From contig CH464491.1 of assembly GCA_000002445.1 (NCBI GenBank), forward strand, positions 1,632,001-1,696,000: DNA of 64,000 nucleotides, read 5' to 3'. Below, piece by piece: positions 758-29,759 of this stretch; position 1 is the stretch's first letter, and each line of letters begins with the position of its first letter. The stretch comes from Trypanosoma brucei (lineage: Eukaryota). The translations under genes were made by a program, and so were the position numbers. Below the pieces are notes generated by a model. That model worked only from the letters and a program-made list of their open reading frames with translations. It was not told the origin of the DNA and searched no databases.

Positions 758-2173
758 ATGCCTGTGCTTCCGGAGTTCATCCCACTAGGGAAGCAAAAGG
801 AGATGTTCGCCGTCTCCTCATGGCGTGACTCCCCGCAAGCATCAACACCTGCGCTTTCAAACGTGGCAAATCAGCCAATGAGTCCCGCTCTACTGCCAGC
901 TGCTCAGTGCGAAAAGGATGTTGGACAACAGGGAAAGGGCCAACGTACACGAAAATCAAAAGGAAGGGGAAAGAACCAATCTTCACAGCGGCAACCTGAC
1001 GTGGAAGATTTCTTCGTCAACTTCGTTCTTCCACCTGGGATATCTTTTGCCAATATCAAGGAGGAACTGCAACTCTTTGCAACAACACCGCTGCACATAT
1101 ATGATGTTGGACCACCGCACACACTTTTGGTTAAGAAGAGCACAGGTGCAGTTGGTAATGCCGACGCGGATGTCAGCGCCGCATCCCAACAAGCCGATGG
1201 CACCGCCCCCCTCATCGACAAGGGCGTATCCAAGTGCGCTGCACATGAACAATCACCGATCCGAACACCAAACATCATGTGTGGTGTCACTGCAGACTGT
1301 AGCGGCGAGGTTGCGGGTGCAGCGATGCCTGGTATATCCCTTCCTCCATCCATCCCTGCAGAAACACTCTCAAAGGGTTATCTGATTTCACTTCTGTTCG
1401 CTGAAAGTAGCGAAGCAGAGAAGGTGAGCGAGTTACTCAAAAAGAAATGGCCGCAGTCCACAGTGACAATAGTTCCGCGTAACCGCTCGATGCTGAATGC
1501 ATCATTGGTTCTTAAGGGCCTCCCAAACCTTCCGAAAACGGAGGTTATTATTGAGGAACTTGATAAAATCATTCCACATAAGCCGTCATATATTCGCCTC
1601 CATCGTGGTGAGCGTGGGGTCTTCAAGAATGTGGTATTTATCAAGTACCCAAATCGAGAAATCGCTGAAGAGTGCAAGCTGCGGCTTGAGCGCCTCTACA
1701 TCGGATCGCGCCCGCTGAAGGTGGAATTTAAAAAGAAAGAAAAACCCGCTGCAGAAAAGGATGAGGGTATGACCTTACAGCAACTTGTTCGTGACCTACG
1801 CGTGAGCTCAGAGCATGAGGGTTTCAGATATCAGCGCAGTGATCTCAGCAAAGAAGACCTCAAAGTGCTCAAGCAACTCTGCAACTCTTATGGCCTTTCT
1901 TTCGATCTTGACGACCGCACCGTAACGGTGCGCCGTATTCTCCCATTGAGCGGGCGTCCCTCCCCAGCAATGCGTCCCGCTGCTGCCAATGGCTGTGCCT
2001 CCCACACGTTGACTGCAACAATGCCAACACCGGGAACACTGCAGCCGATGGATTTTCGGGGTATTCGCCATTGGCGGGAACTGAACAGCCAACAAGTTTC
2101 ACTGGGCATTGCACGACCGAAGGAGCCTGGTTCGGTACAACCTTTCGCTCCGGGTCGTGGTCGCCCCTTGTGA
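758..2173 (+). CDS. RRM-like RNA-binding protein (hypothetical)
   Basis: 471-aa ATG-start ORF. Central segment LVLKGLP ... RGVFKNVVFIKY ... IGSRPLKVEF matches RNP2/RNP1 spacing of an RNA-recognition motif; basic N-terminal region. A second degenerate RRM-like segment may lie upstream (FVNFVLPPGISFANIKEEL). Confidence 0.6.
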   Translation: MPVLPEFIPLGKQKEMFAVSSWRDSPQASTPALSNVANQPMSPALLPAAQCEKDVGQQGKGQRTRKSKGRGKNQSSQRQPDVEDFFVNFVLPPGISFANIKEELQLFATTPLHIYDVGPPHTLLVKKSTGAVGNADADVSAASQQADGTAPLIDKGVSKCAAHEQSPIRTPNIMCGVTADCSGEVAGAAMPGISLPPSIPAETLSKGYLISLLFAESSEAEKVSELLKKKWPQSTVTIVPRNRSMLNASLVLKGLPNLPKTEVIIEELDKIIPHKPSYIRLHRGERGVFKNVVFIKYPNREIAEECKLRLERLYIGSRPLKVEFKKKEKPAAEKDEGMTLQQLVRDLRVSSEHEGFRYQRSDLSKEDLKVLKQLCNSYGLSFDLDDRTVTVRRILPLSGRPSPAMRPAAANGCASHTLTATMPTPGTLQPMDFRGIRHWRELNSQQVSLGIARPKEPGSVQPFAPGRGRPL

Positions 2174-4926: not shown

Positions 4927-5568
4927 AGTCATCTCCCGTTATCCATCTCGTTTTCGTTCCCTTTAACGACTGGTAACGCAAGGGTTTCTTCTCGTGGTCA
5001 TCTCTAAAATGGGATCGACGTTAAACTTCTCCTTCACTTCCATTCCTCATATGTCAGAGTGCTCAAGCAAAGCGCAAATATTTTTGCCTGCTTGTTTATG
5101 TTAGTACTCGGGATGTTGTGGGCTTGCGATACACTTTTCGTTAGAGGAAGAAGGCAAGCGAACAATTGGGATTAATCGCTGCTGTTTTTTTTTTAAATAG
5201 GCTGGTAAAATCTCCCAATATTCATGCAATTGCTCGTCTTATTGAACATCTGTACGGGTTTTACTTCAATTCGTGAAGCTGAGAACTGTTTTTCGTATCC
5301 TTTTCGCGCGGGGGCGTGTCATGGTCTAGTGAGCACTCATCAGGTGGTCATTTTATATTTGTATACCCAGCGCTTTTCAATGTGGTTTCTTGGGAAAAAA
5401 AACTTTTTTTTGTGAGCACTCATGCTGGTTAGCAGTTTGGGAGAATGTCCTTAACCTTGCATTGCAGGTTCCTCTGCTCCTTACTATTGGTCCTCGTTGA
5501 CCACTCAAATGGAAATTTAAAACCTTCTACTTTTGCATTTCGTTTCCTACCAATTTAGTGGCACAAAC

Positions 5569-6597
5569 ATGTGTGGGAAGGATTCATCACATGACTACAG
5601 TACACTTGTAACCGCCCTTTCACGAACAATGGTTTTCAAGCAGGACTCACACCCACGTTACGAGGGTCCTGTAGCACTGAAAGTGGCAGCAAAATCGGGG
5701 TCAGATGATCGAGGTATGCACCCGTCACTACACGAAGCGGGTGTCTACAAGCTGATATGCCCACATCCTTCTATTCCTGATTACGTTGATTGCGTGGAAG
5801 ATTGGTTCGACACGGAGCGCTTTCTAGCTGAGGAGGAGCGCCGTGGGGAGCAGCGTTTGCCTGTTCTCGTCACACAGTTTATCAAGGCAGTTGCACTTGA
5901 CCGCTTTCTTTGTTCTGTACGCGTAATTCGGTGGTCCGTGGTCATTCACATCGCTAACCAGCTCGTTGAGGTACTTAAGCACATAAACAGCAAGGGCGTT
6001 GTATATCGTGACCTCAAGCTACCCAACGTAATAATTGGAGCAGGGGGTAACGTATGGCTCGTGGACTACGCGAGTTCAATGATTGTTGGGGGTGAAGAAC
6101 CATCAAGTGGTGTAACGTCTCACATGCGTCCGCCAGAATCGTTCGAGTTCCCGGATCACCAAAGTGGGGAACAAATATCGCAAGCTCAGCTCTCTTTCAT
6201 GGCGGACTTTTGGGTGTTCGGCGCGTTTCTACTGGAAATACTCTCTGGTCGTCCATACCTTGGGTCCTTCGACGTGCGGAGTAGTCATCTAACGCAGAGT
6301 CAACTGGAGGAAAAGGTGTTGGAAGGTGTTTCCGTGATTAAGGATCGTTACAAGGGTGCATACTACAACAGACGGTTTAATAAGAGTTTTCCATGCAACG
6401 CAAAGACTTTATGGGATGCGCTTACGGGGTTGCTTATTAAATTGCTGCGGCGTAATCCGAAGGAGAGGTTAGGCCATGATGGCGGTTGGTATGCCGTCAA
6501 GCAGCAACCATTCTTCAAATATACTCTCTGTGACCTCACCGTACCGTTTCCATTGGATTATGAAGATGAAATTGAAGAGCTTATGGCCGGTTTTTAG
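5569..6597 (+). CDS. Protein kinase-like protein, probable pseudokinase
   Basis: Track ORF 5533..6597 starts with TTG; first in-frame ATG is at 5569. VALKV (VAIK-like), YRDLKLPN in place of HRDLKPxN, DYA in place of DFG, PPE for APE and DFWVFGAFLLEILSG (subdomain IX) give kinase fold order with catalytic His and the DFG Phe substituted. Confidence 0.55.
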   Translation: MCGKDSSHDYSTLVTALSRTMVFKQDSHPRYEGPVALKVAAKSGSDDRGMHPSLHEAGVYKLICPHPSIPDYVDCVEDWFDTERFLAEEERRGEQRLPVLVTQFIKAVALDRFLCSVRVIRWSVVIHIANQLVEVLKHINSKGVVYRDLKLPNVIIGAGGNVWLVDYASSMIVGGEEPSSGVTSHMRPPESFEFPDHQSGEQISQAQLSFMADFWVFGAFLLEILSGRPYLGSFDVRSSHLTQSQLEEKVLEGVSVIKDRYKGAYYNRRFNKSFPCNAKTLWDALTGLLIKLLRRNPKERLGHDGGWYAVKQQPFFKYTLCDLTVPFPLDYEDEIEELMAGF

Positions 6598-9207: not shown

Positions 9208-10500
9208 ATGAGCACATCCCTCACGTCGTCCTCAACTAACGCAGTGGGGAGGGGTCGAAGGGTCACGCGTTCCCTTGTAGGTGCAAACACTACGGGAGGT
9301 GGGGTCCTACGTTGTGTATGCACTGCGTACCTCGTCTCAGTACAGGAAACACTTCTGGAATGTTGCCGATGCAGGAATTGGTGTCATCCGGCGTGCGTAG
9401 GTGTCGACCATGCGGAACTGCGGCGCTACTACACTGATAATAACTATGTTTGTCCTTTTTGTAGGGGTATGCAGAAGCGAGAACGTGGTGAAAGTCGTGC
9501 CCCAGCACCACGGCAAACACCACTGCGGCTTCGGGAGGTTCCTGATCGAGCACCCTTTGGTTTCGTGACGCAACTGCGCAACCTATTGAAAGTAACAACG
9601 CGGGCGGCACAACAGGCGGGTTATACAATTATTGACCTTCCCTCCACACCACTGACGGAGGTGATGGAGCGACAATGCCTAGAATGTTGCGCTGAGGCAA
9701 TAAAAGAGGCGACATTCTCGGAGCAATACCCGTTGTACTGCCTGAAGGAAGTTTGGACGCGCGCGCATCCATATATGCAGGGTACGTTACTCCGCTGCAG
9801 CGAATCTGGTCGGATTGTATCGATGGTTCTTTCCAACGGTATGGACGTGTATGGAAACCTTCGACCAACAATAACACAGTTGAAAAGCGGTATTAACCGC
9901 GGAATTATTGATAGAAAGCATCAGACAGCATTTATGGCGGCATGCACGAAACTGGATGATGTCTCCGACTTTGTACACATTACATTGAGCGCAACGCACA
10001 AAGATTATCAGCGGAGGGGACTTGCGCGCATGTTGATGGCGCTTGACCTACTCAAATGGGCGCTGAGAGGTCGTACGCGGGCTTACCTTAACATGGCGTT
10101 GGAAAAGAAAGTTGTGGATGGGGGGGCTCGATTGGAGTGTGTAGCTTCACCCTCCTCTCGGCGGCTATATGAATCATTTGGGTTTAGGGATGTGTATCCG
10201 CGGTTCGATCGGGAAACGGATGAACAGCGCTGGACACCAAAAGAGGCGGATATGGGCCGCGTCATGGCACACCTCAACTTTGTTGAAGATCTCGTAATCA
10301 TAGCATCACGGTACGACCCTAGTGGCAAGAAAGCAGCTGCCCCTAATCAATCGTCGATTGCTAACGACGGAAGTGCTTCGGTGGCGACGGCGGCCGACTG
10401 CGCTGAACGTGTGGCCGCCAATAGTAACAACGGCCAGGCAGCAACACAAGCACAAACGCCCGCAGGGAGACGTCTTTCTCTGTTTGGGAAGAAATCGTAA
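9208..10500 (+). CDS. PHD zinc-finger + GNAT N-acetyltransferase fusion protein
   Basis: ATG start. C4HC3 PHD pattern CVC-x14-CCRC-x4-H-x2-C(WCHPAC)-x19-CPFC near the N-terminus. C-terminal GNAT motif A YQRRGLARMLM and motif B SSRRLYESFGF. Acidic and Ala/Ser-rich tail. Confidence 0.65.
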   Translation: MSTSLTSSSTNAVGRGRRVTRSLVGANTTGGGVLRCVCTAYLVSVQETLLECCRCRNWCHPACVGVDHAELRRYYTDNNYVCPFCRGMQKRERGESRAPAPRQTPLRLREVPDRAPFGFVTQLRNLLKVTTRAAQQAGYTIIDLPSTPLTEVMERQCLECCAEAIKEATFSEQYPLYCLKEVWTRAHPYMQGTLLRCSESGRIVSMVLSNGMDVYGNLRPTITQLKSGINRGIIDRKHQTAFMAACTKLDDVSDFVHITLSATHKDYQRRGLARMLMALDLLKWALRGRTRAYLNMALEKKVVDGGARLECVASPSSRRLYESFGFRDVYPRFDRETDEQRWTPKEADMGRVMAHLNFVEDLVIIASRYDPSGKKAAAPNQSSIANDGSASVATAADCAERVAANSNNGQAATQAQTPAGRRLSLFGKKS

Positions 10501-11589: not shown

Positions 11590-13263
11590 ATGATGCACTT
11601 GTCGTTACAACTATGTAAGCCGAAGACACTGGCGCACATGTTCCGCAAGTTGAAACTGGCGGGTGCTCATCCGGATGTCTTATGGGCCGTTGACGCTCAG
11701 AAGGCACAACACAACAGTGAGGAGATGATACGACTAGAAACCATGATGCACCAGCGGAGCACCCCTGGTGCGAGTAATAATCGCCAGAGTACCGCAGAAA
11801 GTTTCACATTTTGGCTGACAGATAATCAACAGCAGCCCCGTGCATTCGCAGCGGGCCGCAGTTCATTGCGATCTGTTTCGTGCACCATAAATCCCATAGC
11901 CCCAACGCGCACAATCAAGCAGCAGTTGACTCAGTTGTTTCGCGATGCTGGTGTATACGAAGATTTTGAGATTGGTGGTGAGGGGGTTGAAATGAATCTT
12001 GAATCTGTCCTACGACAGGCGGACGAGCGGCAAGAGGAACACCTACAACAGTCCGGTACCTTGTACATTCGCGGGGACAAGTCTATTGAGATGTTGCGTC
12101 GTTTTGGTGTCTTGCTAATCATCGAGGAAGAAGGTGTCACATATTTAGTTACATTACCGGATGTTCTTGACAAACCTGTAGATGACACGCCATCAACATA
12201 CACTCCGGCTAGGAGTCTCATCGGCCCTGACGGTGAAATCGATCCCAGAGTTCAAGATTACATTCGTGATCGCGGGCTCCGTGCCTTCGATCTGCGGATG
12301 GCTGGGAGCCATTCGTCCGTTGAGCGCTTCGTTTCTGCATTTGAGCGACTTGAACGGCTATACGAAGTGCACCGCGGGCGTGCTATGCGCTCCTGCGTTT
12401 GTCTTGTCCTTTCAATCAAAGCGCCAAAGTGTTACGTGGCGGAGGATGGTTGTATTGTTCTTTCTGTACAGCAGATGCCCATGTGGGAGGAGTTTCTGCT
12501 TTCGCTTCCGCAAGAAGTGTGGCAAAGCTGCGTGCAGATGCACAGAGACTGGCGCGTCGGGAATGCACCAAAGTTTCACGAACGACAGCGCCAACTGATG
12601 AAGGTGGCAGACATGTTTCACTTCTTCCGCGTAAGACTTGACGGTTGTATCGGATCACAAACGGACTGGCAGCAGCAGTTCATACTTAGCATGCAAAAGG
12701 AGGAGATGATCGTACGGAACGCAGTGAAAAAGTATAACCTGAAGTCGGAGTTACTGAAGAGACGAGGCGAAATATGTGTATCGAATACCCTTCGTAGCGC
12801 TGTCGACCCCACGAAAGAAATAGGTTATCGGATTGGGGGAGATGGTCGTGTTTATTTCAATCATAGTGCGATGAATACAGGTCAAATGCTACGAGCACTC
12901 AAAGACAATCTTCGACGGCTTGAAACTTTTCAGAAACAGCACGACGACGCAGTAGCGACGCTGGAACACATGAGTCGCAGTATCCCCGTCGACTTCAGCG
13001 TGGATACCAACTGGAAACTTCGGGAAGAGGGAAATTTGGTAAGTTGTTTACAGCGGTTTGTCAGAACGATCAAGGCGAACCAAACTCAGCTTTCAGCATT
13101 CTTGACAATGCTGTTAAAGAAACGAGATGGTGCGGGAGCACCCAAGAAAAGAATGGTTTGGATCATTTCAGAAAGGTTTGACACACTTCCCAGTGGTGTT
13201 GTTTATATCCCATGGGACGTCGATTTTGACTCGATAAAAAAACATTTACTTCCCTCAGGGTGA
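11590..13263 (+). CDS. Hypothetical protein (557 aa)
   Basis: Long ATG-start ORF in the plus-strand block, same orientation as neighbours; no recognisable domain by eye. Confidence 0.5.
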   Translation: MMHLSLQLCKPKTLAHMFRKLKLAGAHPDVLWAVDAQKAQHNSEEMIRLETMMHQRSTPGASNNRQSTAESFTFWLTDNQQQPRAFAAGRSSLRSVSCTINPIAPTRTIKQQLTQLFRDAGVYEDFEIGGEGVEMNLESVLRQADERQEEHLQQSGTLYIRGDKSIEMLRRFGVLLIIEEEGVTYLVTLPDVLDKPVDDTPSTYTPARSLIGPDGEIDPRVQDYIRDRGLRAFDLRMAGSHSSVERFVSAFERLERLYEVHRGRAMRSCVCLVLSIKAPKCYVAEDGCIVLSVQQMPMWEEFLLSLPQEVWQSCVQMHRDWRVGNAPKFHERQRQLMKVADMFHFFRVRLDGCIGSQTDWQQQFILSMQKEEMIVRNAVKKYNLKSELLKRRGEICVSNTLRSAVDPTKEIGYRIGGDGRVYFNHSAMNTGQMLRALKDNLRRLETFQKQHDDAVATLEHMSRSIPVDFSVDTNWKLREEGNLVSCLQRFVRTIKANQTQLSAFLTMLLKKRDGAGAPKKRMVWIISERFDTLPSGVVYIPWDVDFDSIKKHLLPSG

Positions 13264-14794: not shown

Positions 14795-15454
14795 ATGGCC
14801 ACTGCGCGGTCGTATTTTTACTACCTCGACGCCCATGGGAACCTCTTTCCCGTCACAGACATTAAAGGACTCATTGACGGTACAAATATTCCAGCAGGTC
14901 CAATACAACTGCGTGACCGGGCTTTTCTAGACTTCTTCTACTTGCGACTTAAGCGAAGTGATGTAGAAGATGCAGCGGCATGTTCTAACGTTAGTGACCG
15001 TAGGGAAGAGGGGGAATTACTGCTGCACAGTGGCGCAAAGCTAACGCCGCAGGAGGTAGTGCAACACTTTCCGTATGTGAGCATATGTGGTCCCGAAAGA
15101 AATTTCTTAAAGGCAGAGGAGGCCCCGTTAGTGTTTGTAAACTACACTTCTGGTCATCCAAAGTGCAAGCAGCAAAACGGAACCCTTGCGTTTGGCGAGT
15201 CGCTATGGGAGGACTTCCAGCCCCAGGCGCTGGTCGTTACACGGGAAGGTAAACTCTTTCATCCCATCACTAAACTCAAGAATCTTATAGCCACTCAAAA
15301 TGGCGCAGGTGATGCAGTTCCACGTGGCTTAGTTGAAGCTCAGGTCGTGAAGAAATTGGGGCTGGAGTTAGTTTGTGACAGCGCTAAAAGTGGATACTAC
15401 GTCCTTGAGTGGAAAGGACAGAAGCAGCGCATTCCGTATTTTGACGAACTGTGA
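14795..15454 (+). CDS. Hypothetical protein (219 aa)
   Basis: ATG-start ORF on the plus strand; no recognisable motif. Confidence 0.4.
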   Translation: MATARSYFYYLDAHGNLFPVTDIKGLIDGTNIPAGPIQLRDRAFLDFFYLRLKRSDVEDAAACSNVSDRREEGELLLHSGAKLTPQEVVQHFPYVSICGPERNFLKAEEAPLVFVNYTSGHPKCKQQNGTLAFGESLWEDFQPQALVVTREGKLFHPITKLKNLIATQNGAGDAVPRGLVEAQVVKKLGLELVCDSAKSGYYVLEWKGQKQRIPYFDEL

Positions 15455-15876: not shown

Positions 15877-15930
15877 TTCATATATAATTTTTACCCCTCT
15901 CTCTATCCACCTGTGCGTGCGCAAAGTAAA

Positions 15931-16896
15931 ATGGAAACCAGTGGCCCTAAGACAGTTCCGGGGACGGATCTGTGTCACAGAGTGCTTTACGCTGCGGTGG
16001 TGGGTGATAACGCGAAAGGCTGTCTTCCGGGATCGGTTAAGAAGATGACACCAGATGGAGTTGTTATCGTTGACCATGTAATGCGATGCGCACGGTATTA
16101 TGTTCCTGGATTATGCCTCTCTGGATCCTTACCGACATCAAAATGCGAGTCCTTATTGGATTTTTCGGATCAAGTACCTCCATTAAGTGCAGAACCGCAG
16201 AAGCAAGAACTTATTGACAGGATACTGTACTACTCGAGCGAATTGGAAAGCAGGACGCAGCAATTAGAGTTAAGAAAGCAAGAGGTCCAATCTCTTCAAA
16301 ATAAGCTGCGTATTGTAAACAAAGAACTTAAGAGAAGAGGGATAGTCATAGCGGACACTCCTGAGCGTGGGTACACGAAGGGAAGCGACTTCAAGAAAGT
16401 GTACAGTCCGGATGACAGCTATATCGGGAACAACTTCCCCGCACCTCCAAATTCAAGGGACATTGGCAGTGATGACCCCACACGACCGCCGCTCCCTCCC
16501 CTCCGCATCGACGGCGATTTAAGATCGTATACTTCGCGCCCACCTCCCCCATACTCTGCAGAGCCACTTGTACCGCCTTTCATATCGTGTGCGCTACCAC
16601 CAAAAAGTTTGATCGCTGATCAACCAGGGGTGACGGCACTGCCGTCGGGGAGGCGGGTTCAACAGGCATTCGCAAAAATGGTCCAAAACTCCCGGAGACA
16701 TGATAACCCCGCAGCAGCCGGCTGCCAACCAGTCTCCAATAGGGACGGGTTGGTAGGCACCATACCACAAGCAGAGGGAGTGGAATCAATCAACGGAGTG
16801 GAGAGGTTTGGGAACGACGGCGCAGATAATAACTCGAGGAGGGAAGAGGAGGGTAATTCGGATGTCGCTGCTAAGAAGAGTCACTCCTACAAATAA
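15931..16896 (+). CDS. Hypothetical protein with coiled-coil centre and Pro-rich C-terminus
   Basis: Track start 15913 is GTG; first ATG is at 15931 (METSGPK...). (AT)12 microsatellite and a polypyrimidine tract lie immediately upstream. Heptad-like segment QQLELRKQEVQSLQNKLRIVNKELKRR, then PPLPPLRIDG / PPPPYSAEPLVPP. Confidence 0.45.
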   Translation: METSGPKTVPGTDLCHRVLYAAVVGDNAKGCLPGSVKKMTPDGVVIVDHVMRCARYYVPGLCLSGSLPTSKCESLLDFSDQVPPLSAEPQKQELIDRILYYSSELESRTQQLELRKQEVQSLQNKLRIVNKELKRRGIVIADTPERGYTKGSDFKKVYSPDDSYIGNNFPAPPNSRDIGSDDPTRPPLPPLRIDGDLRSYTSRPPPPYSAEPLVPPFISCALPPKSLIADQPGVTALPSGRRVQQAFAKMVQNSRRHDNPAAAGCQPVSNRDGLVGTIPQAEGVESINGVERFGNDGADNNSRREEEGNSDVAAKKSHSYK

Positions 16897-19069
16897 TATC
16901 AGGAGTGAGTGGTGGCGTTCGTACTCCGCCGCAGCTCGCTATGTATGGGTATGTGGCTGTGGTTTTTCCTTACCCCGTGACGGGTAGTGAATCACATTAC
17001 TGTTTCCCCATGCGAATGCACATGCAGGGGTGACTATTCTGATAAGTGAAGAACAAAACTGTAGTGGTTCGGATGGCTCTTTGGTACTTACTTGTGCCCC
17101 TAACAACTCGTTAACGCTGTCCTGACGATAACCGCGCTTGCGAAGTTGTTTTCGCATGGTAACAACGGGAGTGCTTCGGACAGGGAGCTCTGGCACTACT
17201 TCATCATATGTACCGTCCCTCTTTATTTTTTTTAAAAAAAGTGGACCACGATGTTCACCACTATATTGTGGGTGTGGGAACCTCTGTTCGCTATAGTGCC
17301 ACTGGCCGAGGTGAACAGCAAAAGGAAAAACAAAAAATAAATAAACTCTCATTGAGTTGAAGGCGCGCAGCGCTCGCAAGTGTTTCAGAGTGGAGATGCA
17401 TGCTGGTAGTCCTTCCTTATGTTTTCAGCCGCTGGGTACCCTCCCCCATGTCTCTGCCTTTCTAACCCTTTTCTGGCTCATAATCTGCAGCCCATAACGC
17501 GCGCACAATTACGCGATACCTTCGACGCCCTAGCAGTCCGGAAGATGTTCTAAAAGCCAACTTTACCAAAAGACTGTTAATGGGGCCAAATAACTGATTA
17601 AGACAGGTAACTCCGGGAAGGTGGTTAGAGTAATGGGATCTGTGTTTAGATGATTTTTGTTGCTGTTTTAATAAAAGTGACCCTTTGACCTCTTTGGAAC
17701 TCCCTTTCGCCTCATTGTGCGCTACAGACTCTTCTGCAAGTGTTCTAAACGAAAGGGAGTTAACTTATTGATATCGTGTTTCCATTTTGAGGGAGAAGAG
17801 AAGCATCAAAGAGTACAAGAAGGGATCCACCGGCACCTTGATCTCATCTTCATCTGTTTTCCCATGTTTTCTGGAGAAACCTAGTAGTGAAGATGTTGTG
17901 TTATGATATAGGAGGCAGTGAAAGCATTGAGTAAGGAAAAGTTGTTTTCCTTCTTTCCTCATCCCCATTGGTAATTGGCACGTAACGGCGTCACCACCCA
18001 TGTATCGGGGGCTTTCGCTGAGTGTTGGATGAATGTGTGTTCGGGGTGCGAGCAAGGATCAGCAACATTTGTCAGGTAGAAGATACCTTCTTAACTTCTC
18101 ATCAGAAATGTTGATTTTGCTTCATCTGCTTTAAGGACGAGGGGAAGTTTATGGAAGTGTGTGAGAAAACTTAAGGGGGTGGATTTGTTGTGGTGCAGGC
18201 AGAGGCTTAATCCCTGGTAACGTTTTTCCCTTTGATAAAGAACTGAGGACAAAGGGAGTTAGGAAATGATGTGGGATATCGTCTTCTCTTTACCCTTTGT
18301 ATGTGAGAGAGGCCCCATGGATGTGTTACACTGGGGTATTTGTTGTGTCTGATGGGCGGAGAAGCGTTAAACTAAAATTAGGTGCGTAATAACTGTGGCT
18401 GTGGTGGAATATTTCGTGCCAAGCAGGGCGACAGCATTTGCTTCCTTGAGATATAGAATCACGTGCTGCCATAATGATTAGGGGTAGCAAAAGTGCCTGG
18501 AACAGTCCTCAATGGGAGTGAAACTGGGAAGGGCACAAAACTTCTCCGAGTAGTCGCGCGTGATATTGTAGATCATGTATAAGCACTGTGAAGGTTTGTA
18601 GCTCCTAATCGGTTGTGAACACATACAACCTACCGGTGCTCATGTACATCTCGCTCGTCGTCCCTTCATATGAAGACAGTGTGAACAGTACATCTTTTTC
18701 CCCCAAGAGCCGCGCACTTCACAACCGTAATGGAAGCAAGTGTTAAAAGGAGTACCGAGCGCTGAATTATGGGAGGGATGTCCACAATATCTGAAGTTTT
18801 TTTAAAGTTTGGTGAATGTGCAGAGGCACATGTACACCGATTGCCGAGGGGCGGGGCGTCCCGGGCACGACATATCGAGGGCGTTCTAGCTTTGTGTTTG
18901 GTGTGGTATTTTGAGCACGTGGAAAATTTTGTTTACTTTCTTATTTTCCGCCACCCCCACGCCCTTTGAAGGGGGCTGCCCCATAGAAGCGTAACAACAC
19001 AACTTCATTCTACGTGCTTACTACACTTGGTTATAGGGGTTGCTTAGGAACAATTGGCGAGAAAACAAA

Positions 19070-22000
19070 ATGCTCACAACCTTCGATTTTGGTGTCAACA
19101 TCGATGAGGAGGAATGGGGAGTTCTCCACAACAAATTGCGCTCGTTTGTGTCTGGCCACGAAAAAATGCTGATGGACATTCAACAAACATTCAACCGTCG
19201 CTGGGACCCAACAGTGTGGGATGCCCATTCCGATACTGTGTTCCTGCAGCTCGGAGCGGAGGCACTGCGACACCTACTCGAGAAGGACCCGCCGGAGGAG
19301 GAAGACGACGAATTTAGCACATCGATAGCAGACGTTCTTGGGAGGACGCAGATACAAAATCGTCTTTTCTATCGAATAACACTGTGCTTCGCAGACCTTG
19401 CGCTTAAAATGGAGTCGCTCACGAAGGAGGCAAACGACCTGTTGCTGCCACCTCTTGCAATGTTTGACGATAACAACTGTCGGGATGGATGTGCCGAAGA
19501 AACTGAAGATGAAGAAACCGATGGTATTACCGATGAGGAAGCGCTTCGAGGAGCCGGTCGCATGTTAGGCGTTCTTCAAAAGGTATGGAGGTGGCTTAGG
19601 CGCGTGCAGAAGGTTGTTTGCCACGTGGTGCAGCAACTTGCGTCGCTTTATTCACCGCAACACAAGTGTGAAAATTATCGCTCGTTCTCTCGCGTGCGCT
19701 ATTTGCTGATCTGGCGCAAGCTTGCAGATCTTCTCGGGGCCGTTGTTTGCGTAGAAGAGGTTTTATACTCACACGACACACTTCGTTACGGTCTCTCGAT
19801 ATATCGTAAGCTGCTCGCGCAAGTGTCAAGGAACTTGGAGAAATTCGAATGCGACGAGGAAAAATTAGATCTTTTTTGCCACTTGCTGACAAAAATCGAC
19901 AAGGAGTTACTTGATGACGGAATACTAAAACGCATAACCGGACAAGCATTTGAAACAGGTTTCGTGGCCACTGCTGATGAACCGCCACTGGTTGTTACAA
20001 CAAACAAAAGGCTCTACGAAGAGTTCACGGACGTTCTAATTCAGTTCATAACCTCTGCTGAAGGGACTATTGGAACCATGCGGGGATATGATGAACGTGA
20101 GCGCTACGTTGGAGTCCTTGGGCTCTACTATATGTACCTCCGCTTGTTCTCTAGTGTGGCCGAAGAGTCGCACCGACGGGACATTTGTAACCGTATTTTT
20201 GCTTTGTATCGCAAGATTCCCATTGTTTACATACGTGGAATGCATTGCTTTCGTACTGCTCTGTGGTTCATTCGACGCCTGAATGCGGAGCTAAAACGAT
20301 TTCACCTCGATGCGGTGAAGGAGAGGACGTTGCTTGTTAAGCAGGAGTGCCAAAACAGCAAGTTAGCATTTCTTCCGCAGATGAACCGCTTTACGACACT
20401 TGTTAGCGTGTGGCTCGCGGAAATGGAGAGCACCGCTGCAGCCGCAAACCACTCGCAGCACGGGGAGTTTCTCCAGACAGTTGCGTTGGTGCTGCAGCGG
20501 GGTGTTTTTCTGGCACATAATGTCCGAAGATTAATTGTATATCACGTTGCCCTGCATGACTGCGCAGATGACGCTCTTTCTGTGCATGACGTTGATGGAA
20601 TATCCCAGGGTGTGCAGATGCTGATGATGATACGGGCTGCGTACCACGATAAAACAGGAGTAATTGCCGCTTCGTACAATGTGTTAGTGGGTCATATTAA
20701 ATATGTAATGGAGCAACATTTGTACGACATGTGCCTCGGAATGAGCAAAATTCCTCAGCGTAACAGCACTGCAGAAACCAAAGATCAGTACAGTGCCATC
20801 TGTATGGCACTTGATCTGCTGCGTAAACCACAAACACCCGAAAACGTCATGTGCATTGACCTTGTACTAAGTGTTGTGTTTCACAGGCAGAAAACAAACG
20901 GGACTTCTTCAACAGCTGCCCTAACCGCTGAGCACGGCGGTGGTACTCTTATCGCCTTCTCGCAACTTGGCCGCATAGCTTCATACCAAAAGTCGATTCA
21001 GGATGCAACTAACTGTGAGTTTTTGTACTGGCAGCGGGAAGTATTCTTTCCAACCTTCATCAAGCGGCTCTACCAAAAACCATTGAACTCCGAGTACATG
21101 CCATACACGATACTGGCAATGCACGATTGTGTCCCGTCTATTCTTTCCTCCAGGCACACCAAGAGCGCAAGGTCTCTGCTCGACGCTTATACTTCTTACA
21201 CGTGGGGGTGTATTCGCGAGCACCTTATCGAGCCGTTGTGTGTTGACATTGAAAACGACCTCCGTCTGTGTACCCACTCAGTCGTCTTGGGGCAGCCGTT
21301 TAGACAAATTGGGGCCTCGACACGCGCACGAGATATGGCACGGTTTACGCGGCTACCCCCGATCTGTCTTTTCAGTGAGTGGCTACACATTGCAACCGAA
21401 GTGGAGAAGCACTTGGACGAGAAATTTTATAATCTTAATGCCCTAATGGCCAATGATTGGAAGACATACGAGGAAATACGCAACTTGGCGCTCCAGCGGT
21501 ATGGATTGCGGATATGTGATGGATATCTTCCGGGTAGTATAGTTGATCAGGGACTCGATGTGCTTGTAATAACGGAGAACATACAAGTTTTTGTTGCTAA
21601 CTACACGTACAACATGAATGAACAACTCTTTGTGCAACGACCGTCGACTACAGAGTCGAAACATCTGCACACCCTGCATATTCGCCACATTGCCAATTCC
21701 ATACGGACACACGGAACTGGTATTATGAATACAACAGTAAACTATGTTTACAAGTGTCTCTTAAAGAAACTTGCTATACTTTCACAATTTCTTTGCGATG
21801 ACCACGTTAAGTCGAGGTTACTCAAAAATGCGAAGCTGCTGCACCACAAGAAGGAGGAGCGAAGCGTCGAGTACACGCTCGCGTGGGCAGAAAAATTTAT
21901 TCGTGAGATGCATAAGTTGGGAGTTGCGGATGACGGTCAAACTTTCCTCTCTAAATTTCGTCACCTCGTTTCGGAAATTGGCAACGCCCTAGCTTACATG

Positions 22001-22843
22001 AGGATGATGCGCAGCGGCGGTCTGCGTGCCGTCGCTGATTCTGCGGCTTTTGTACCGTTTGTTGATGCCGACGTTAGTCTGGAGCGGTTCGTTATCCCTG
22101 AATCCGATGAAGAAAATGAAGGCAATGGTGATAATAAGTCGAATGATGCTGACGGAAATTGTGAGAAAGGCAGCGACAGTGGTGAATGCAGGAAAAGCAG
22201 AGAAAAAGTACCGCAGTGTACCACTCAGGCGGTGCAAGTAGTCGATGGAGTCATTGGTAGCATGCGTGAGAAGTTGTCTGATGGCTCAGCGTACTTCCGC
22301 ATGCTTCTGGAGGCAGTGACCAAGCGCTTAAAAGGGGCCGTCAAGTACACTCATTTGAAAAACTTCTATCTCATTGTTCCACCCATATGTGTTCTGCACG
22401 TTGAAACCATGATACGGGAGAAAGAACAACTCGTCAAGAAGAACAAGGACGGTATATTTACGGATGACGGTTTTGCATTGGGGTGTTCTTTCTTGCTTAA
22501 ACTTTTTGGTGTGTGGAACCTTTTTGATTCACTACACTGGTTCGAAAACATACGGAAGCATTATGGGTCCCACCTCCAAGAGGTTCGTGAAGGGATTGCC
22601 AGACACGAACAAAAGATGAAAGCAAGCAAGAACGCAGCTGTTTGTTGGGAAGAAGAGGTCAACAACATGCATCTGACGTCTATGATGCTTGAATGTTCAC
22701 TGGGTGAGTATACCGCATTGGAGGAGGCTTTCGTGTCAAGCAAAGTTTTCTTCTACTTTGCGACGCCGGAGGACGCCAGCGGTGAGCTTCAAGATGATGA
22801 CAAGGACGAAAGTGAAGAAGGTACAGATGCAGATGAAGGCTAG
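19070..22843 (+). CDS. Large hypothetical protein (about 1257 aa) with acidic C-terminus
   Basis: Track start 19040 is TTG; first ATG is at 19070 (MLTTFDF...). Uninterrupted 3.8-kb frame; polypyrimidine tract 18927-18968 upstream; C-terminal DDDKDESEEGTDADEG. Confidence 0.6.
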   Translation: MLTTFDFGVNIDEEEWGVLHNKLRSFVSGHEKMLMDIQQTFNRRWDPTVWDAHSDTVFLQLGAEALRHLLEKDPPEEEDDEFSTSIADVLGRTQIQNRLFYRITLCFADLALKMESLTKEANDLLLPPLAMFDDNNCRDGCAEETEDEETDGITDEEALRGAGRMLGVLQKVWRWLRRVQKVVCHVVQQLASLYSPQHKCENYRSFSRVRYLLIWRKLADLLGAVVCVEEVLYSHDTLRYGLSIYRKLLAQVSRNLEKFECDEEKLDLFCHLLTKIDKELLDDGILKRITGQAFETGFVATADEPPLVVTTNKRLYEEFTDVLIQFITSAEGTIGTMRGYDERERYVGVLGLYYMYLRLFSSVAEESHRRDICNRIFALYRKIPIVYIRGMHCFRTALWFIRRLNAELKRFHLDAVKERTLLVKQECQNSKLAFLPQMNRFTTLVSVWLAEMESTAAAANHSQHGEFLQTVALVLQRGVFLAHNVRRLIVYHVALHDCADDALSVHDVDGISQGVQMLMMIRAAYHDKTGVIAASYNVLVGHIKYVMEQHLYDMCLGMSKIPQRNSTAETKDQYSAICMALDLLRKPQTPENVMCIDLVLSVVFHRQKTNGTSSTAALTAEHGGGTLIAFSQLGRIASYQKSIQDATNCEFLYWQREVFFPTFIKRLYQKPLNSEYMPYTILAMHDCVPSILSSRHTKSARSLLDAYTSYTWGCIREHLIEPLCVDIENDLRLCTHSVVLGQPFRQIGASTRARDMARFTRLPPICLFSEWLHIATEVEKHLDEKFYNLNALMANDWKTYEEIRNLALQRYGLRICDGYLPGSIVDQGLDVLVITENIQVFVANYTYNMNEQLFVQRPSTTESKHLHTLHIRHIANSIRTHGTGIMNTTVNYVYKCLLKKLAILSQFLCDDHVKSRLLKNAKLLHHKKEERSVEYTLAWAEKFIREMHKLGVADDGQTFLSKFRHLVSEIGNALAYMRMMRSGGLRAVADSAAFVPFVDADVSLERFVIPESDEENEGNGDNKSNDADGNCEKGSDSGECRKSREKVPQCTTQAVQVVDGVIGSMREKLSDGSAYFRMLLEAVTKRLKGAVKYTHLKNFYLIVPPICVLHVETMIREKEQLVKKNKDGIFTDDGFALGCSFLLKLFGVWNLFDSLHWFENIRKHYGSHLQEVREGIARHEQKMKASKNAAVCWEEEVNNMHLTSMMLECSLGEYTALEEAFVSSKVFFYFATPEDASGELQDDDKDESEEGTDADEG

Positions 22844-25704: not shown

Positions 25705-25875
25705 GGTGGTTAAACGGAATAAGTTGCTTTTGTTAATCTTGAAAAATATCTGCATTTATTTCACTAATAGTTGGGAAGAAATCTTCCTGTTACCATAATA
25801 CTCTGTTGCTCACTCTACTTTAAACAGCTATTTTTCATGTGCGCACTGGAATGGGAAGGAGCGAGCCGCAATGCT

Positions 25876-26175
25876 ACTGCGGAAAGTCGCACGGCAACCG
25901 GGGCGCAACGGATTTTCCGCCATTGGTAAACTACGGCATGTGACGGACGATAACGGAAAACATGGCACGTGGGAAGACGGTTTTTTGGCCATGGGAAGCT
26001 GCAGCAGTGCTTCCCGACCAAGGAGCAAGAAAGTCGCACGGCAACCGGGGCGCAACGGATTTTCCGCCATTGGTAAACTACGGCATGTGACGGACGATAA
26101 CGGAAAACATGGCACGTGGGAAGACGGTTTTTTGGCCATGGGAAGCTGCAGCAGTGCTTCCCGACCAAGGAGCAA
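25876..26175. repeat. Tandem duplication, 147-bp unit x2, GC-rich, open on both strands
   Basis: The motif aagtcgcacggcaaccggggcgcaacgg recurs at 25884 and 26031 (period 147). The whole unit is repeated near-identically. Each unit contains the hairpin gggaagc-tgcagcagt-gcttccc. Track ORFs on both strands show the 49-aa repeat KVARQPGRNGFSAIGKLRHVTDDNGKHGTWEDGFLAMGSCSSASRPRSK. Confidence 0.85.
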
Positions 26176-26671
26176 AGATCTTTCGGAACCTAACGTGGGA
26201 TGAGGAAGTTTACGGTACGATTGATGACGAAAGAAAGATGCCGCGGCGATCGTTGAGGCATTGCGACCTTCGCATTGAAAATGCCAACAAATCGTCGAGC
26301 GAAGGGATTCACTTTGCCGCGTTTTTCGTCAAAACCGGTCATGCCCGGACTGCTAAAATTCTCGTTTTTTTACGGAGTGGGCCTACTGGGGTGCCCATTC
26401 GCCTTCTATCGTTCTTCACGGATGCCCATACCCTTCGGAAAAGCCTTGTCGTCCTCTCCCCCACGTGGACCGATGAAGAGCGTCCTTAAATCCATTGTCA
26501 GGATTATCCGGAATCTGCTTCTCTGCCCGAAGCCTTTTTACTGGTGCGATGCCTATTAGCACCTCCAACAACGGTATCTGCGGCATCTTCTGGTTTGGTT
26601 GCCATTTAAGATTTCACAGTTTCAGCCGCCGTGGATATTCACCGATTTTCAAGTGGACTTACACGCGCATT

Positions 26672-26687
26672 GGGGGGGGGGGGAGGG
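26672..26687 (+). repeat. G12AGGG homopolymer tract (G-quadruplex-capable)
   Basis: tggggggggggggagggcgcgg read directly in the sequence. Confidence 0.8.
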
Positions 26688-28855: not shown

Positions 28856-28878
28856 GTGTGTGTGTGTGTGTGTGTGTG
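28856..28878. repeat. (GT)11 microsatellite
   Basis: gtgtgtgtgtgtgtgtgtgtgtg read directly. Confidence 0.9.
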
Positions 28879-29540
28879 GAAGAATATAGCAGAAAGGGAT
28901 CAAAACAATAACAACATAATGGAGGCAGAAACAATGAAAGCGGTATACGCGATCTGTTGGTGGCTGGAATGTTTTAAAAGTTAAGAGGCCTGCGGGGGAA
29001 CCACATATATAACGACCCCTGCGGAGGCACACGCTAAGATTACAATCTCATAAGTGGCGGAAGCATAGTTCTCACATTGCCACTGTATGAATCCGCTGTC
29101 AATGTTAAAAAGAGAAGGAGAGGGCGCGCAAATAGCGCCAGGCACCATACTGCAGTCCCATGTGAAGGAGACGAAACGTATGGAAACGAAAAAAAAAGGG
29201 AGCGTGTTAATGGAAGAGGGGTTAAATTACAAAATTTAAAAAAATAACTTCGTCACGGAAGCACCTGTCACGTTACCGTATGTGACATGGAAAGAGGGCA
29301 TTTAGCCAGCACCTACAACAGGGGTTGGCGCCAGCATTCGCTATCAAAATAATAATAATAATTAAACAGTAAGGTTATTAAGTGTATGCCAAAGACACAC
29401 CATAAACACATGGAAGGGAATGGAATGTAAACGAATAAAGAGTAGGGATACAGTGGCGAACATCAACATTAACATCCAGATGAGTGATTCTGTATCAGCA
29501 CCACGTCTGCCTGCAAGGGTGTGGGGGATGAGATTTAAAA

Positions 29541-29560
29541 ATATATATATATATATATAT
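29541..29560. repeat. (AT)10 microsatellite
   Basis: atatatatatatatatatat about 200 bp beyond the GRESAG4 stop codon. Confidence 0.9.
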
Positions 29561-29759
29561 TTGTCGGGCGCAAAGGCACCGGCAAGGCACCCTAGTAAGC
29601 CGTTGCTGGTTAAATAACGCTAAGAAATAAGTCGCTTAGTGCGAGGTAGTAGAAGGAAGTGCATCTGATTTAAAACACAAAACAATAACTTTAAAAAAAA
29701 ACAAAAACGATTCTCGCATAAGGTGTGGGTTGGTAAGGGGGAAAATAGCTACGCAACTC

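What the first reader, a model, noticed from the sequence alone, without database searches (positions are those of the whole stretch)
9208..10500. PHD-finger fused to a GNAT acetyltransferase: a putative chromatin reader-writer in one polypeptide
A canonical C4HC3 PHD finger, including the W-x-H-x2-C signature, lies about 35 residues from the N-terminus. About 200 residues downstream is a GNAT acetyl-CoA-binding core, with motif A QRRGLAR and motif B RRLYESFGF. PHD fingers read histone H3 tails, so a PHD-GNAT fusion suggests a histone- or chromatin-protein acetyltransferase targeted by methyl-lysine state. This architecture differs from the MYST HATs characterised in trypanosomes.
Basis: partly seen in the sequence, partly recalled or inferred. 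Interest (0 to 1): 0.6.

Follow-up and report, generated by a model that had tools for sequence, protein, structure and literature searches.

The report
Known trypanosome PHD5: PHD finger plus GNAT
The gene is real and does encode a PHD zinc finger fused to a GNAT acetyltransferase, but it is the already catalogued Trypanosoma brucei protein PHD5 (Tb927.11.5870), which published screens found dispensable, not enriched at any genomic site and without stable partners, so its substrate is still unknown.

Summary
Observation confirmed. Window 9208-10500 (+) is a 430-aa ORF with a C4HC3 PHD finger (residues 36-85) and a GNAT domain (about 106-357) with intact motif A (QRRGLAR) and motif B (RRLYESFGF). 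It is identical to T. brucei TREU927 Q385I1 = Tb927.11.5870. Staneva et al. 2021 named it PHD5 and listed it as 'PHD and GNAT' (HHpred 99% and 91%). They found it nuclear and cytoplasmic, with no fitness loss in RIT-seq, no specific ChIP-seq enrichment and no convincing interactors. The architecture is therefore already known.

New here:
- The fusion occurs throughout Kinetoplastea and in diplonemids, and nowhere else among 1.84 billion representatives.
- All eight zinc ligands are conserved.
- The aromatic cage of H3K4me3-reading PHD fingers is not conserved; only the Trp is kept, and the first Tyr is a conserved Arg.

Best reading: a soluble acetyl-CoA-dependent protein acetyltransferase whose PHD finger docks a peptide. 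Targeting by methyl-lysine state is not supported. Interest is low to moderate.

The parts
9208..10500 (+). Complete ORF, 430 aa plus stop. It equals T. brucei PHD5 / Tb927.11.5870 / UniProt Q385I1 / XP_828662.1.
   Evidence: ORF list. Exact-sequence look-up. Name and gene ID from Staneva et al. 2021, Supplemental Table S1.
9208..9312 (+). N-terminal tail, residues 1-35, predicted disordered. It holds a conserved basic motif (R17, T20, R21: 'R-[MV]-[VI]-T-R').
   Evidence: pLDDT below 50 for residues 1-32. R17, T20 and R21 are conserved in at least 90% of orthologues.
9313..9462 (+). PHD zinc finger, residues 36-85. Ligands are C36, C38, C52, C55, H60, C63, C82 and C85. W58-x-H60-x2-C63 lies at nt 9379-9396.
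   Evidence: Pattern and shuffle test. PDB matches to the PHD fingers of BPTF, PHF2, PHF8, EBS and DIDO1. Ligands conserved in 19 of 21 kinetoplastid sequences and in diplonemids.
9499..9549 (+). Conserved segment 'APAPRQxPLxLREVPD' (residues 98-114) between the PHD finger and the GNAT core. The 'LRLREV-PD' part looks like the usual GNAT beta1 / start of alpha1 (inference).
   Evidence: L108, V111, D113 and P116 are invariant; P99, R102, Q103 and E110 are conserved in at least 90%. Model confidence rises from residue 108 onward.
9523..10278 (+). Enlarged GNAT acetyltransferase domain, about residues 106-357. It is about 250 aa against about 160 in minimal GNATs.
9970..10029 (+). Beta4 strand FVHITLSATH (residues 255-264; H257, A262 and T263 invariant even in diplonemids), followed by acetyl-CoA-binding motif A, Q268-R-R-G271-L-A273-R.
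   Evidence: Coordinates. Conservation. Pfam Acetyltransf_1, _7 and _10 align here.
10159..10185 (+). Motif B / alpha4, RRLYESFGF (residues 318-326). Y321 is conserved and sits where many GNATs have their general-acid Tyr. It is separated from beta5 (LNMA, N295) by a hairpin insertion of variable length.
   Evidence: Coordinates. S317, L320, Y321 and G325 are invariant in kinetoplastids; Y321 is conserved in at least 90% when diplonemids are included. Variable insertion seen in alignment columns about 900-940.
10228..10275 (+). Family-specific conserved C-terminal extension of the GNAT core, RWTPKEADMGRVMAHL (residues 341-356).
   Evidence: W342, T343, E346, G350, V352 and M353 are invariant. 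Confidently modelled as a helix plus a strand.
10324..10497 (+). C-terminal tail, residues 373-430, predicted disordered. It ends in 'RRLSLFGKKS', which is conserved within the genus Trypanosoma (RRLSL = residues 421-425, nt 10468-10482).
   Evidence: pLDDT below 50 for residues 376-430. Alignment columns 1101-1163.

Best explanation
The ORF is the already catalogued T. brucei protein PHD5 (Tb927.11.5870). It has two modules joined by a flexible linker: an N-terminal PHD zinc finger (residues 36-85) and an enlarged GNAT acetyltransferase domain (about residues 106-357).

Most likely mechanism:
- The GNAT domain binds acetyl-CoA through motif A (Q268-x-x-G271-x-A273) and transfers the acetyl group to an amino group of a protein substrate. 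The conserved Y321 would act as general acid, and the invariant H257 on beta4 is a candidate base.
- The PHD finger acts as a peptide-docking module that brings in a substrate or a partner. The most plausible target is a basic tail such as a histone tail.
- The enzyme is soluble, shuttling between nucleus and cytoplasm or present in both, rather than stably bound to chromatin.
- The PHD finger is probably not a canonical H3K4me3 reader.

Shown: the ORF, both domains, conservation of the ligands and motifs, the GNAT fold, the phyletic range, and the identity with PHD5 together with its published phenotypes. Inferred: catalytic competence, a protein (not small-molecule) substrate, the docking role of the PHD finger, and the roles of Y321 and H257.
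For: Identity: exact match to Q385I1 / XP_828662.1, named PHD5 = Tb927.11.5870, 'PHD and GNAT'. Published HHpred gives GNAT 99.03% (3TT2_A) and PHD 90.64% (3KQI_A).

PHD finger: C4HC3 pattern with 0 of 200,000 shuffles matching. BPTF PHD finger at E=6e-5 for the single sequence and 1.2e-6 for the family profile. Ligands conserved across kinetoplastids and diplonemids.

Separate modules: Leishmania orthologues carry low-complexity inserts of about 100-200 residues between the PHD finger and the GNAT domain.

Selection: a compact family with 51 representatives at E<=1e-30, spanning Kinetoplastea and Diplonemea.

Soluble enzyme: published localisation is nuclear and cytoplasmic with either tag position, there is no specific ChIP-seq enrichment, and the IP recovered the bait, UNC119 (listed as a frequent contaminant) and a weakly enriched HECT ligase.
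Against: No enzymatic activity or substrate has been shown for this protein, here or in the papers found. RIT-seq shows no fitness cost in any condition tested, so any role is redundant or specific to conditions not tested. The single T. brucei sequence scores below Pfam's PHD gathering cut-off (17.7 against 24 bits), and the PHD finger is modelled at only moderate confidence (pLDDT about 55-82). No histones were recovered in the pull-down. Some high-ranking Foldseek neighbours are small-molecule (arylalkylamine or polyamine) acetyltransferases, so a non-protein substrate is not excluded. The published ChIP and IP used an N-terminal YFP tag about 35 residues from the PHD finger, which could have impaired it, so the negative results are not decisive.
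Confidence: 0.55

Rival explanations
1. PHD5 is a chromatin reader-writer: the PHD finger reads a methylated H3 lysine (for example H3K4me3) and directs the GNAT domain to acetylate neighbouring histone tails.
For: The best PDB sequence matches of the PHD finger are H3K4me3 readers: BPTF, PHF2, PHF8, DIDO1 and EBS. W58, at the position of BPTF cage residue W32, is conserved as W or Y in kinetoplastids, and an aromatic Y/F41 lies next to the position of BPTF Y17. Part of the protein is nuclear. H3K4me3 exists in trypanosomes. From memory, not tested here: PHD plus GNAT-type histone acetyltransferases exist in plants (IDM1/ROS4).
Confidence: 0.15
2. PHD5 is an N-alpha-acetyltransferase similar to NatD. 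It would modify the N-termini of histones or other specific proteins and fill the place of the NAA40 that has not been found in trypanosomes. The PHD finger would help to hold the tail.
Confidence: 0.1
3. The GNAT domain acetylates a small amine (polyamine, arylalkylamine or another metabolite). The PHD finger serves only for protein-protein interaction or stability.
For: In Foldseek, ranks 2-11 are all insect dopamine, arylalkylamine or spermine N-acetyltransferases; further polyamine acetyltransferases and PaiA follow lower in the list. An invariant His on beta4 (H257) plus a conserved Tyr (Y321) resembles the His/Tyr chemistry of AANAT-type enzymes (recalled from general knowledge of AANAT, not tested). 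There are no stable protein partners and no chromatin association.
Against: A PHD finger fused to a metabolic GNAT has no known precedent. The fusion has been kept since before the kinetoplastid-diplonemid split, which argues that the two modules work together on a peptide. Foldseek RMSDs to the AANATs are poor (about 8 A, against 5.3 A for NatD). Part of the protein is nuclear.
Confidence: 0.1
4. PHD5 is a non-catalytic scaffold, or a decaying dispensable gene whose motifs are kept for structural reasons only.
For: RIT-seq score 1-1-1-1, meaning no fitness loss. No partners and no chromatin signal.
Against: The acetyl-CoA and catalytic-type residues (G271, N295, Y321, H257) and all zinc ligands are conserved from trypanosomes to diplonemids. 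That is strong purifying selection on exactly the functional positions. The ORF is intact in every species examined, and the tagged protein is expressed.
Confidence: 0.05

Closest known systems
T. brucei PHD5 (Tb927.11.5870, UniProt Q385I1), Staneva et al. 2021, Genome Res 31:2138 (PMC8559703)
   Same: It is the same protein, with an identical 430-aa sequence. The paper already lists the 'PHD and GNAT' architecture, HHpred probabilities, localisation, RIT-seq score, ChIP-seq outcome and interactors.
   Different: Nothing differs. The paper gives no substrate or activity.
BPTF / PHF2 / PHF8-type PHD fingers (H3K4me3 readers)
   Same: Same C4HC3 ligand pattern, the W-x-H-x2-C signature, similar length, and the best sequence matches (E=6e-5 for the single sequence, 1.2e-6 for the profile).
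   Different: The aromatic cage is not kept. BPTF Y10, Y17 and Y23 align to R35, L42 and L49; only W32 is matched, by W58. The loop between the second and third ligands is one residue longer.
NatD / Naa40 (histone H4/H2A N-terminal acetyltransferase; PDB 4ua3, 4u9w)
   Same: Top structural neighbour in two independent methods, with the longest aligned stretch (168-180 residues).
   Different: Identity is 8-11%. The margin over other GNATs is small and there is no sequence-level match. NatD has no PHD finger. Trypanosome histone N-termini differ from the SGRGK motif that NatD recognises (recalled from general knowledge).
KKT23 (kinetoplastid kinetochore GNAT that acetylates the H2A C-terminal tail; PDB 9evq, 9f5q)
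   Different: KKT23 has a helical N-terminal domain instead of a PHD finger, sits at kinetochores, is needed for normal growth, and is structurally closest to Gcn5. PHD5 is dispensable, diffuse and not Gcn5-like.
Arabidopsis IDM1/ROS4 and related plant 'acyl-CoA N-acyltransferase with PHD finger' proteins (recalled from memory; only its H3K23 acetylation was seen in a paper, PMC5499861)
   Same: Same logic and same domain order: a PHD finger N-terminal to a GNAT-type acetyltransferase in one polypeptide, acting as a histone reader-writer.
   Different: No homology beyond the shared superfamilies was detected. No plant protein appears among the GNAT-spanning hits of the exhaustive search. IDM1 also carries an MBD domain. 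If the function is analogous, the fusion is most likely independent.
Trypanosomatid MYST acetyltransferases HAT1-4, and Elp3a/b
   Same: All are nuclear or partly nuclear acetyl-CoA-dependent acetyltransferases of trypanosomes.
   Different: No MYST (MOZ_SAS) or Elp3 Pfam model is matched, even at E<=10. HAT1 and HAT2 are essential and sit at transcription start regions; PHD5 is dispensable and shows no genomic enrichment.

Membership tests
PHD finger (Pfam PF00628; C4HC3 zinc finger) | Eight zinc ligands in the order Cys4-His-Cys3 with canonical spacing | tested here: met
   C36-x-C38-x13-C52-x2-C55-x4-H60-x2-C63-x18-C82-x2-C85. 0 of 200,000 shuffles match. The ligands are conserved in 19 of 21 kinetoplastid sequences and in diplonemids.
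PHD finger (Pfam PF00628; C4HC3 zinc finger) | Profile match at or above the curated threshold | tested here: inconclusive
   The T. brucei sequence alone scores 17.7 bits (E=0.0036) against a cut-off of 24. However, 7 of 12 family members match PF00628 (best E=3.3e-5), the family profile hits the BPTF PHD finger at E=1.2e-6 and dozens of other PHD fingers, and published HHpred gives 90.64%.
PHD finger (Pfam PF00628; C4HC3 zinc finger) | Conserved aromatic residue (Trp) two positions before the His ligand | tested here: met
   W58-C59-H60. The position is W in 18 and Y in 2 of the 20 kinetoplastid sequences that cover it. It is W or L in diplonemids.
PHD finger (Pfam PF00628; C4HC3 zinc finger) | Binding of two zinc ions in a cross-braced fold | not testable with these tools
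   The AF2 model has only moderate confidence over residues 36-89 (pLDDT about 55-82). Metals are not modelled.
H3K4me3-reading PHD subclass (BPTF / ING / PHF2 type) | Aromatic cage of two to four aromatic residues, including the Tyr just before the first Cys ligand | tested here: not met
   In the HMMER alignment to BPTF (2fui), Y10 aligns to R35 (Arg in 19 of 20 sequences), Y17 to L42 (with Y/F41 next to it), Y23 to L49 (invariant Leu) and W32 to W58. Only one, or at most two, aromatic positions remain.
H3K4me3-reading PHD subclass (BPTF / ING / PHF2 type) | Presence at H3K4me3-marked chromatin in vivo | not testable with these tools
   Published data only. YFP-PHD5 is among the candidates with no specific ChIP-seq enrichment, while H3K4me3 marks divergent strand-switch regions. 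Caveat: the tag sits near the PHD finger.
GNAT superfamily (Gcn5-related N-acetyltransferases) | Profile match above the curated threshold | tested here: met
   Acetyltransf_10: 31.6 bits against 23.6. Acetyltransf_1: 22.6 against 20.7. Acetyltransf_7: 26.5 against 27, just below. Nine of 12 family members match Acetyltransf_7.
GNAT superfamily (Gcn5-related N-acetyltransferases) | Motif A, Q/R-x-x-G-x-G/A, which binds the pyrophosphate of acetyl-CoA | tested here: met
   Q268-R-R-G271-L-A273. G271 is conserved in at least 90% of sequences including diplonemids, and invariant in alignment A3.
GNAT superfamily (Gcn5-related N-acetyltransferases) | GNAT alpha/beta fold | tested here: met
GNAT superfamily (Gcn5-related N-acetyltransferases) | Acetyl-CoA binding and acetyl transfer | not testable with these tools
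   No biochemical data were found for this protein.
Gcn5/PCAF histone acetyltransferase subfamily | Gcn5 is the closest structural or sequence relative, usually with a C-terminal bromodomain | tested here: not met
NatD / Naa40 N-terminal acetyltransferases | Specific structural similarity to NatD beyond the generic GNAT fold | tested here: inconclusive
NatD / Naa40 N-terminal acetyltransferases | Closed substrate tunnel formed by the alpha1-alpha2 and beta6-beta7 loops, and N-alpha specificity | not tested
There are no enzymatic data.
MYST histone acetyltransferases | MOZ/SAS (MYST) catalytic domain | tested here: not met
   No MYST model appears among the Pfam hits, even at E<=10. The fold hits are GNATs.
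Plant IDM1/ROS4-type PHD-acetyltransferases | Orthology or specific sequence relationship to IDM1 | not tested
   No IDM1 sequence was available to compare. Indirectly, every GNAT-spanning hit whose source was checked in the 1.84-billion-protein search came from a euglenozoan or from an unnamed environmental contig, and none from a plant.

The most novel reading that the evidence does not exclude
PHD5 is the functional counterpart, in kinetoplastids and diplonemids, of the apparently missing NatD/Naa40. It would be a dedicated N-terminal (or tail-specific) histone acetyltransferase whose built-in PHD finger grips the divergent histone tails. That would make it a reader-writer for the protein N-terminus, not for a methyl-lysine. 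This rests only on NatD being the top fold neighbour in two methods by a narrow margin, on one published BLAST screen that found no NAA40 in T. cruzi, and on the dual nuclear and cytoplasmic localisation.
Probability: 0.08. Interest if true: 0.55.

Novelty: already known. Interest (0 to 1): 0.22.

Why it matters
Trypanosomes control gene expression largely without regulated transcription initiation, so every chromatin writer and reader is of interest. PHD5 is their only protein that joins a PHD finger to an acetyltransferase, and the fusion is old and restricted to the kinetoplastid-diplonemid lineage. However, its existence and architecture are published, and the first experiments (localisation, ChIP-seq, pull-down, genome-wide RNAi) gave no sign of a chromatin role or of essentiality. 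The open question is its substrate. The value of this re-examination is mainly negative. The finding should not be treated as a discovery, and the 'methyl-lysine-guided histone acetyltransferase' reading should not be assumed, because the methyl-lysine cage is not conserved.

Tried and rejected
- Literature beyond Staneva et al. 2021: full-text searches for 'Q385I1', 'Tb927.11.5870' and 'PHD5 + Trypanosoma' found no other paper about this protein.
- Iyer/Aravind 2008 comparative-genomics paper: I tried a PubMed id and a PMC id recalled from memory, and neither is held. I cannot say whether it noted the architecture earlier.
- Foldseek against AFDB50: the library is not installed.
- Independent PHD-GNAT fusions outside Euglenozoa: the hits just past the family boundary are ordinary multi-PHD proteins, for example a KDM7-like JmjC protein of Porphyridium and a PLU-1-like protein of Prototheca. 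Only the top 150 of 752 hits are listed, so weaker fusions cannot be excluded.
- Open-text source for the IDM1 domain architecture: not found. That comparison is marked as recalled.
- Inspecting the model's substrate groove and PHD cage in 3D: the coordinates are not exposed to the scripting environment.
- Gene neighbourhood as a functional clue: rejected, because trypanosome polycistrons do not group genes by function (general knowledge), and the neighbours are unrelated (kinase, DUF4505, WASH subunit, DnaJ).
Full report
**1. The observation**

Window 9208-10500 (+) is an ATG-initiated ORF of 430 codons. Residues 36-85 (nt 9313-9462) read C36-x-C38-x13-C52-x2-C55-x4-H60-x2-C63-x18-C82-x2-C85. 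This is a textbook C4HC3 PHD pattern and includes W58-x-H60-x2-C63. QRRGLAR is at residues 268-274 and RRLYESFGF at residues 318-326. The pattern did not occur in 200,000 shuffles of the same protein (once with a looser pattern), and it is the only such match in the six frames of the window.

**2. Domain assignments**

- Pfam places the C-terminal half in the GNAT clan above curated cut-offs: Acetyltransf_10 31.6 against 23.6 bits, Acetyltransf_1 22.6 against 20.7.
- The Pfam PHD model scores 17.7 bits for this single sequence, below its cut-off of 24.
- Other evidence supports the PHD call. phmmer against PDB sequences finds only PHD fingers at the top (BPTF E=6e-5, PHF2, PHF8, EBS, DIDO1). 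A profile of 21 orthologues raises BPTF to E=1.2e-6 and adds dozens of further PHD fingers. Seven of 12 diverse family members match PF00628.
- An AlphaFold2 model built on the orthologue alignment is confident (pLDDT 80-97) over residues about 110-375, moderate over the PHD finger, and disordered at residues 1-32, 90-107 and 376-430.

**3. Identity and prior knowledge**

The protein sequence is identical to T. brucei brucei TREU927 XP_828662.1 / EAN79550.1 / UniProt Q385I1 on chromosome 11, and 99% identical to the T. b. gambiense protein. Staneva et al. 2021 (Genome Res 31:2138, PMC8559703) list Q385I1 = Tb927.11.5870 as PHD5. Their data for it are:

| Item | Result |
|---|---|
| Domains | 'PHD and GNAT' |
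| RIT-seq | 1-1-1-1, no significant fitness loss in any condition |
| Localisation | Nuclear and cytoplasmic, in their study and in TrypTag with either tag position |
| HHpred | GNAT (3TT2_A) 99.03%, PHD finger (3KQI_A, PHF2) 90.64% |
| YFP-PHD5 pull-down | The bait (log2 11.5), UNC119 (listed by the authors as a frequent contaminant) and a HECT ubiquitin ligase, Tb927.11.3390 (log2 2.7) |

I found no other paper on the protein. The 2020 review of trypanosomatid histone modification still counts only Elp3a/b as GNAT-family histone acetyltransferases.

**4. Phyletic distribution (added here)**

The word-indexed search found 31 relatives, all kinetoplastid. An exhaustive hmmsearch of 1.84 billion representatives with the family profile gave 51 proteins at E<=1e-30 and then a sharp break. 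After the break come PHD-only proteins.

Members whose source could be traced:
- Kinetoplastea: Trypanosoma, Leishmania, Bodo saltans, Perkinsela, Trypanoplasma borreli, and the prokinetoplastid Papus.
- Diplonemea: Diplonema papillatum, D. ambulator, Lacrimia lanifica, Sulcionema specki and Flectonema neradi.

The diplonemid proteins align over both modules and keep the zinc ligands, motif A and Y321. The fusion therefore predates the kinetoplastid-diplonemid split and has been kept under selection. The first hits past the boundary are ordinary multi-PHD proteins, for example a KDM7-like demethylase. No independent PHD-GNAT fusion turned up, although only the top 150 hits are visible.

**5. 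Is the PHD finger a methyl-lysine reader?**

The best matches are H3K4me3 readers. The HMMER alignment to BPTF (2fui) places its four cage residues as follows:

| BPTF cage residue | PHD5 position |
|---|---|
| Y10 | R35 (Arg in 19 of 20 kinetoplastid sequences) |
| Y17 | L42 (an aromatic Y/F41 is adjacent) |
| Y23 | L49 (invariant Leu) |
| W32 | W58 (W or Y) |

The residue numbers of the BPTF cage come from my knowledge of the BPTF structure papers. They agree with the chain numbering printed. W58 is Leu in some diplonemid homologues. A canonical cage is therefore not conserved.

H3K4me3 is concentrated at divergent strand-switch regions in T. brucei, whereas PHD5 shows no ChIP-seq enrichment. 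The caveat is that the YFP tag was N-terminal, about 35 residues from the finger. I conclude that methyl-lysine reading is unsupported but not excluded.

**6. What kind of GNAT is it?**

The domain is about 250 residues, larger than the minimal fold. It has a variable hairpin insertion between beta5 (LNMA, N295) and alpha4 (RRLYESFGF), and a conserved family-specific C-terminal extension (RWTPKEADMGRVM).

Conserved positions:
- Conserved in at least 90% of sequences: G271, N295, S317 and Y321.
- Invariant out to diplonemids: H257, A262 and T263 on beta4.

This fits an active enzyme. Y321 lies where many GNATs have their general-acid Tyr, and H257 is a candidate base; both roles are inferred.

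- Many N-terminal acetyltransferases follow it. Insect arylalkylamine acetyltransferases come next in Foldseek.
- A GNAT-only profile against PDB sequences gives only non-significant hits. The best is KKT23 (E=0.08) over beta4, motif A and alpha3.
- KKT23 is a kinetoplastid kinetochore GNAT that acetylates the H2A C-terminal tail and is structurally Gcn5-like. I treat the link to it as a lead only.
- A published BLAST screen found no NAA40 homologue in T. cruzi (PMC6115888). This keeps a NatD-like role formally open.

**7. Most likely mechanism**

PHD5 is a two-module, soluble enzyme found in nucleus and cytoplasm. The GNAT domain binds acetyl-CoA and acetylates an amino group, most probably on a protein. 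The PHD finger is tethered by a flexible linker, which is expanded by 100-200 low-complexity residues in Leishmania, and docks a peptide of the substrate or of a partner.

Confidence by step:
- Very high that it is a PHD plus GNAT protein.
- Moderate (about 0.55) for a catalytically active protein acetyltransferase that uses the PHD finger for docking.
- Low (about 0.15) for a histone acetyltransferase guided by H3K4me3.
- About 0.1 each for an N-alpha-acetyltransferase similar to NatD and for a small-amine acetyltransferase.
- About 0.05 for a dead scaffold.

**8. Comparison and novelty**

The feature is PHD5 itself, so it is already known. It works like reader-writer fusions known elsewhere: the double-PHD MYST enzymes, the PHD finger inside the p300 core, and the plant IDM1/ROS4 PHD plus GNAT-type acetyltransferases. 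These three are recalled from memory and were not tested here. It is not a member of the Gcn5, MYST or Elp3 subfamilies. A specialist would not be surprised. The open point is the substrate, and the gene is dispensable in culture. Interest is low to moderate (0.22).

**9. Context**

PHD5 lies in a + strand polycistron (ORFs from 758 to 25704) that ends at a convergent strand-switch region at about 25.7-29.7 kb, without tRNA genes. Its neighbours are functionally unrelated, as is usual for trypanosome polycistrons.

Noticed in passing
window 25705-29759: Convergent strand-switch region. All long ORFs from 758 to 25704 are on the + strand, and all from 29760 to 63327 are on the - strand. The cumulative GC skew peaks here. 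No tRNA genes are found anywhere in the window. In T. brucei such regions are RNA polymerase II termination sites.
   Followed up: partly
window 19040-22843 (+): A 1267-aa ORF with very strong matches to WASH complex subunit domains: WASH-7_mid at E=1.8e-139, plus WASH-4_N and WASH-7_C. It is a SWIP-like WASH complex subunit in a trypanosome.
   Followed up: no
window 758-2173, 5533-6597, 11590-13263, 14795-15454, 15913-16896, 23173-25704 (+): Other genes of the same polycistron. These are a protein kinase (5533-6597), a DUF4505 protein (14795-15454), a DnaJ-domain protein (23173-25704), and three ORFs without any Pfam match (758-2173, 11590-13263, 15913-16896).
   Followed up: partly
window 10468-10482 (PHD5 residues 421-425): The otherwise disordered and variable C-terminal tail ends in a motif conserved within the genus Trypanosoma, [KR]-R-L-S-L-x-G-[KR]-[KR]. 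It looks like a basophilic kinase (R-R-x-S) phosphorylation site or a 14-3-3-type site. It is absent from most Leishmania and bodonid sequences.
   Followed up: no
P0067, P0069, P0070, P0072 (diplonemid homologues), about residues 1-100: The diplonemid PHD-GNAT proteins share an extra conserved N-terminal region that kinetoplastids lack ('MPGAHGPPETWL..G.EVR ... GTVLGVD ... VW'). Pfam gives no match for P0067. It could be a further small reader-like domain.
   Followed up: no
P0016 / P0017 (Leishmania donovani, 692 aa): In the alignment, P0016 lacks the segment that carries the last two zinc ligands (C82, C85). A closely related Leishmania-type sequence, P0013, and the other Leishmania species have it. 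P0017 has the same length but was not aligned. This is either a real deletion that inactivates the PHD finger in this species or an assembly or gene-model artefact.
   Followed up: no
window 9970-10080 (PHD5 residues about 255-290): The stretch 'FVHITLSATHKDYQRRGLARMLMALDLLKW' resembles 'FVEVPLFATGVGYKKHGFGRLMNAALLQW' of the kinetochore acetyltransferase KKT23 (PDB 9evq, 9f5q). KKT23 is the best sequence-level PDB hit of the GNAT-only profile, but the match is not significant (E=0.08). The two kinetoplastid GNATs may be distantly paralogous.
   Followed up: partly
window 9499-9549 (PHD5 residues 98-114): The segment 'APAPRQxPLxLREVPD' between the PHD finger and the GNAT core is among the most conserved parts of the protein, yet its first half is modelled as disordered. 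The second half probably forms GNAT strand beta1. The role of the conserved 'PAPRQ' part is unexplained.
   Followed up: no
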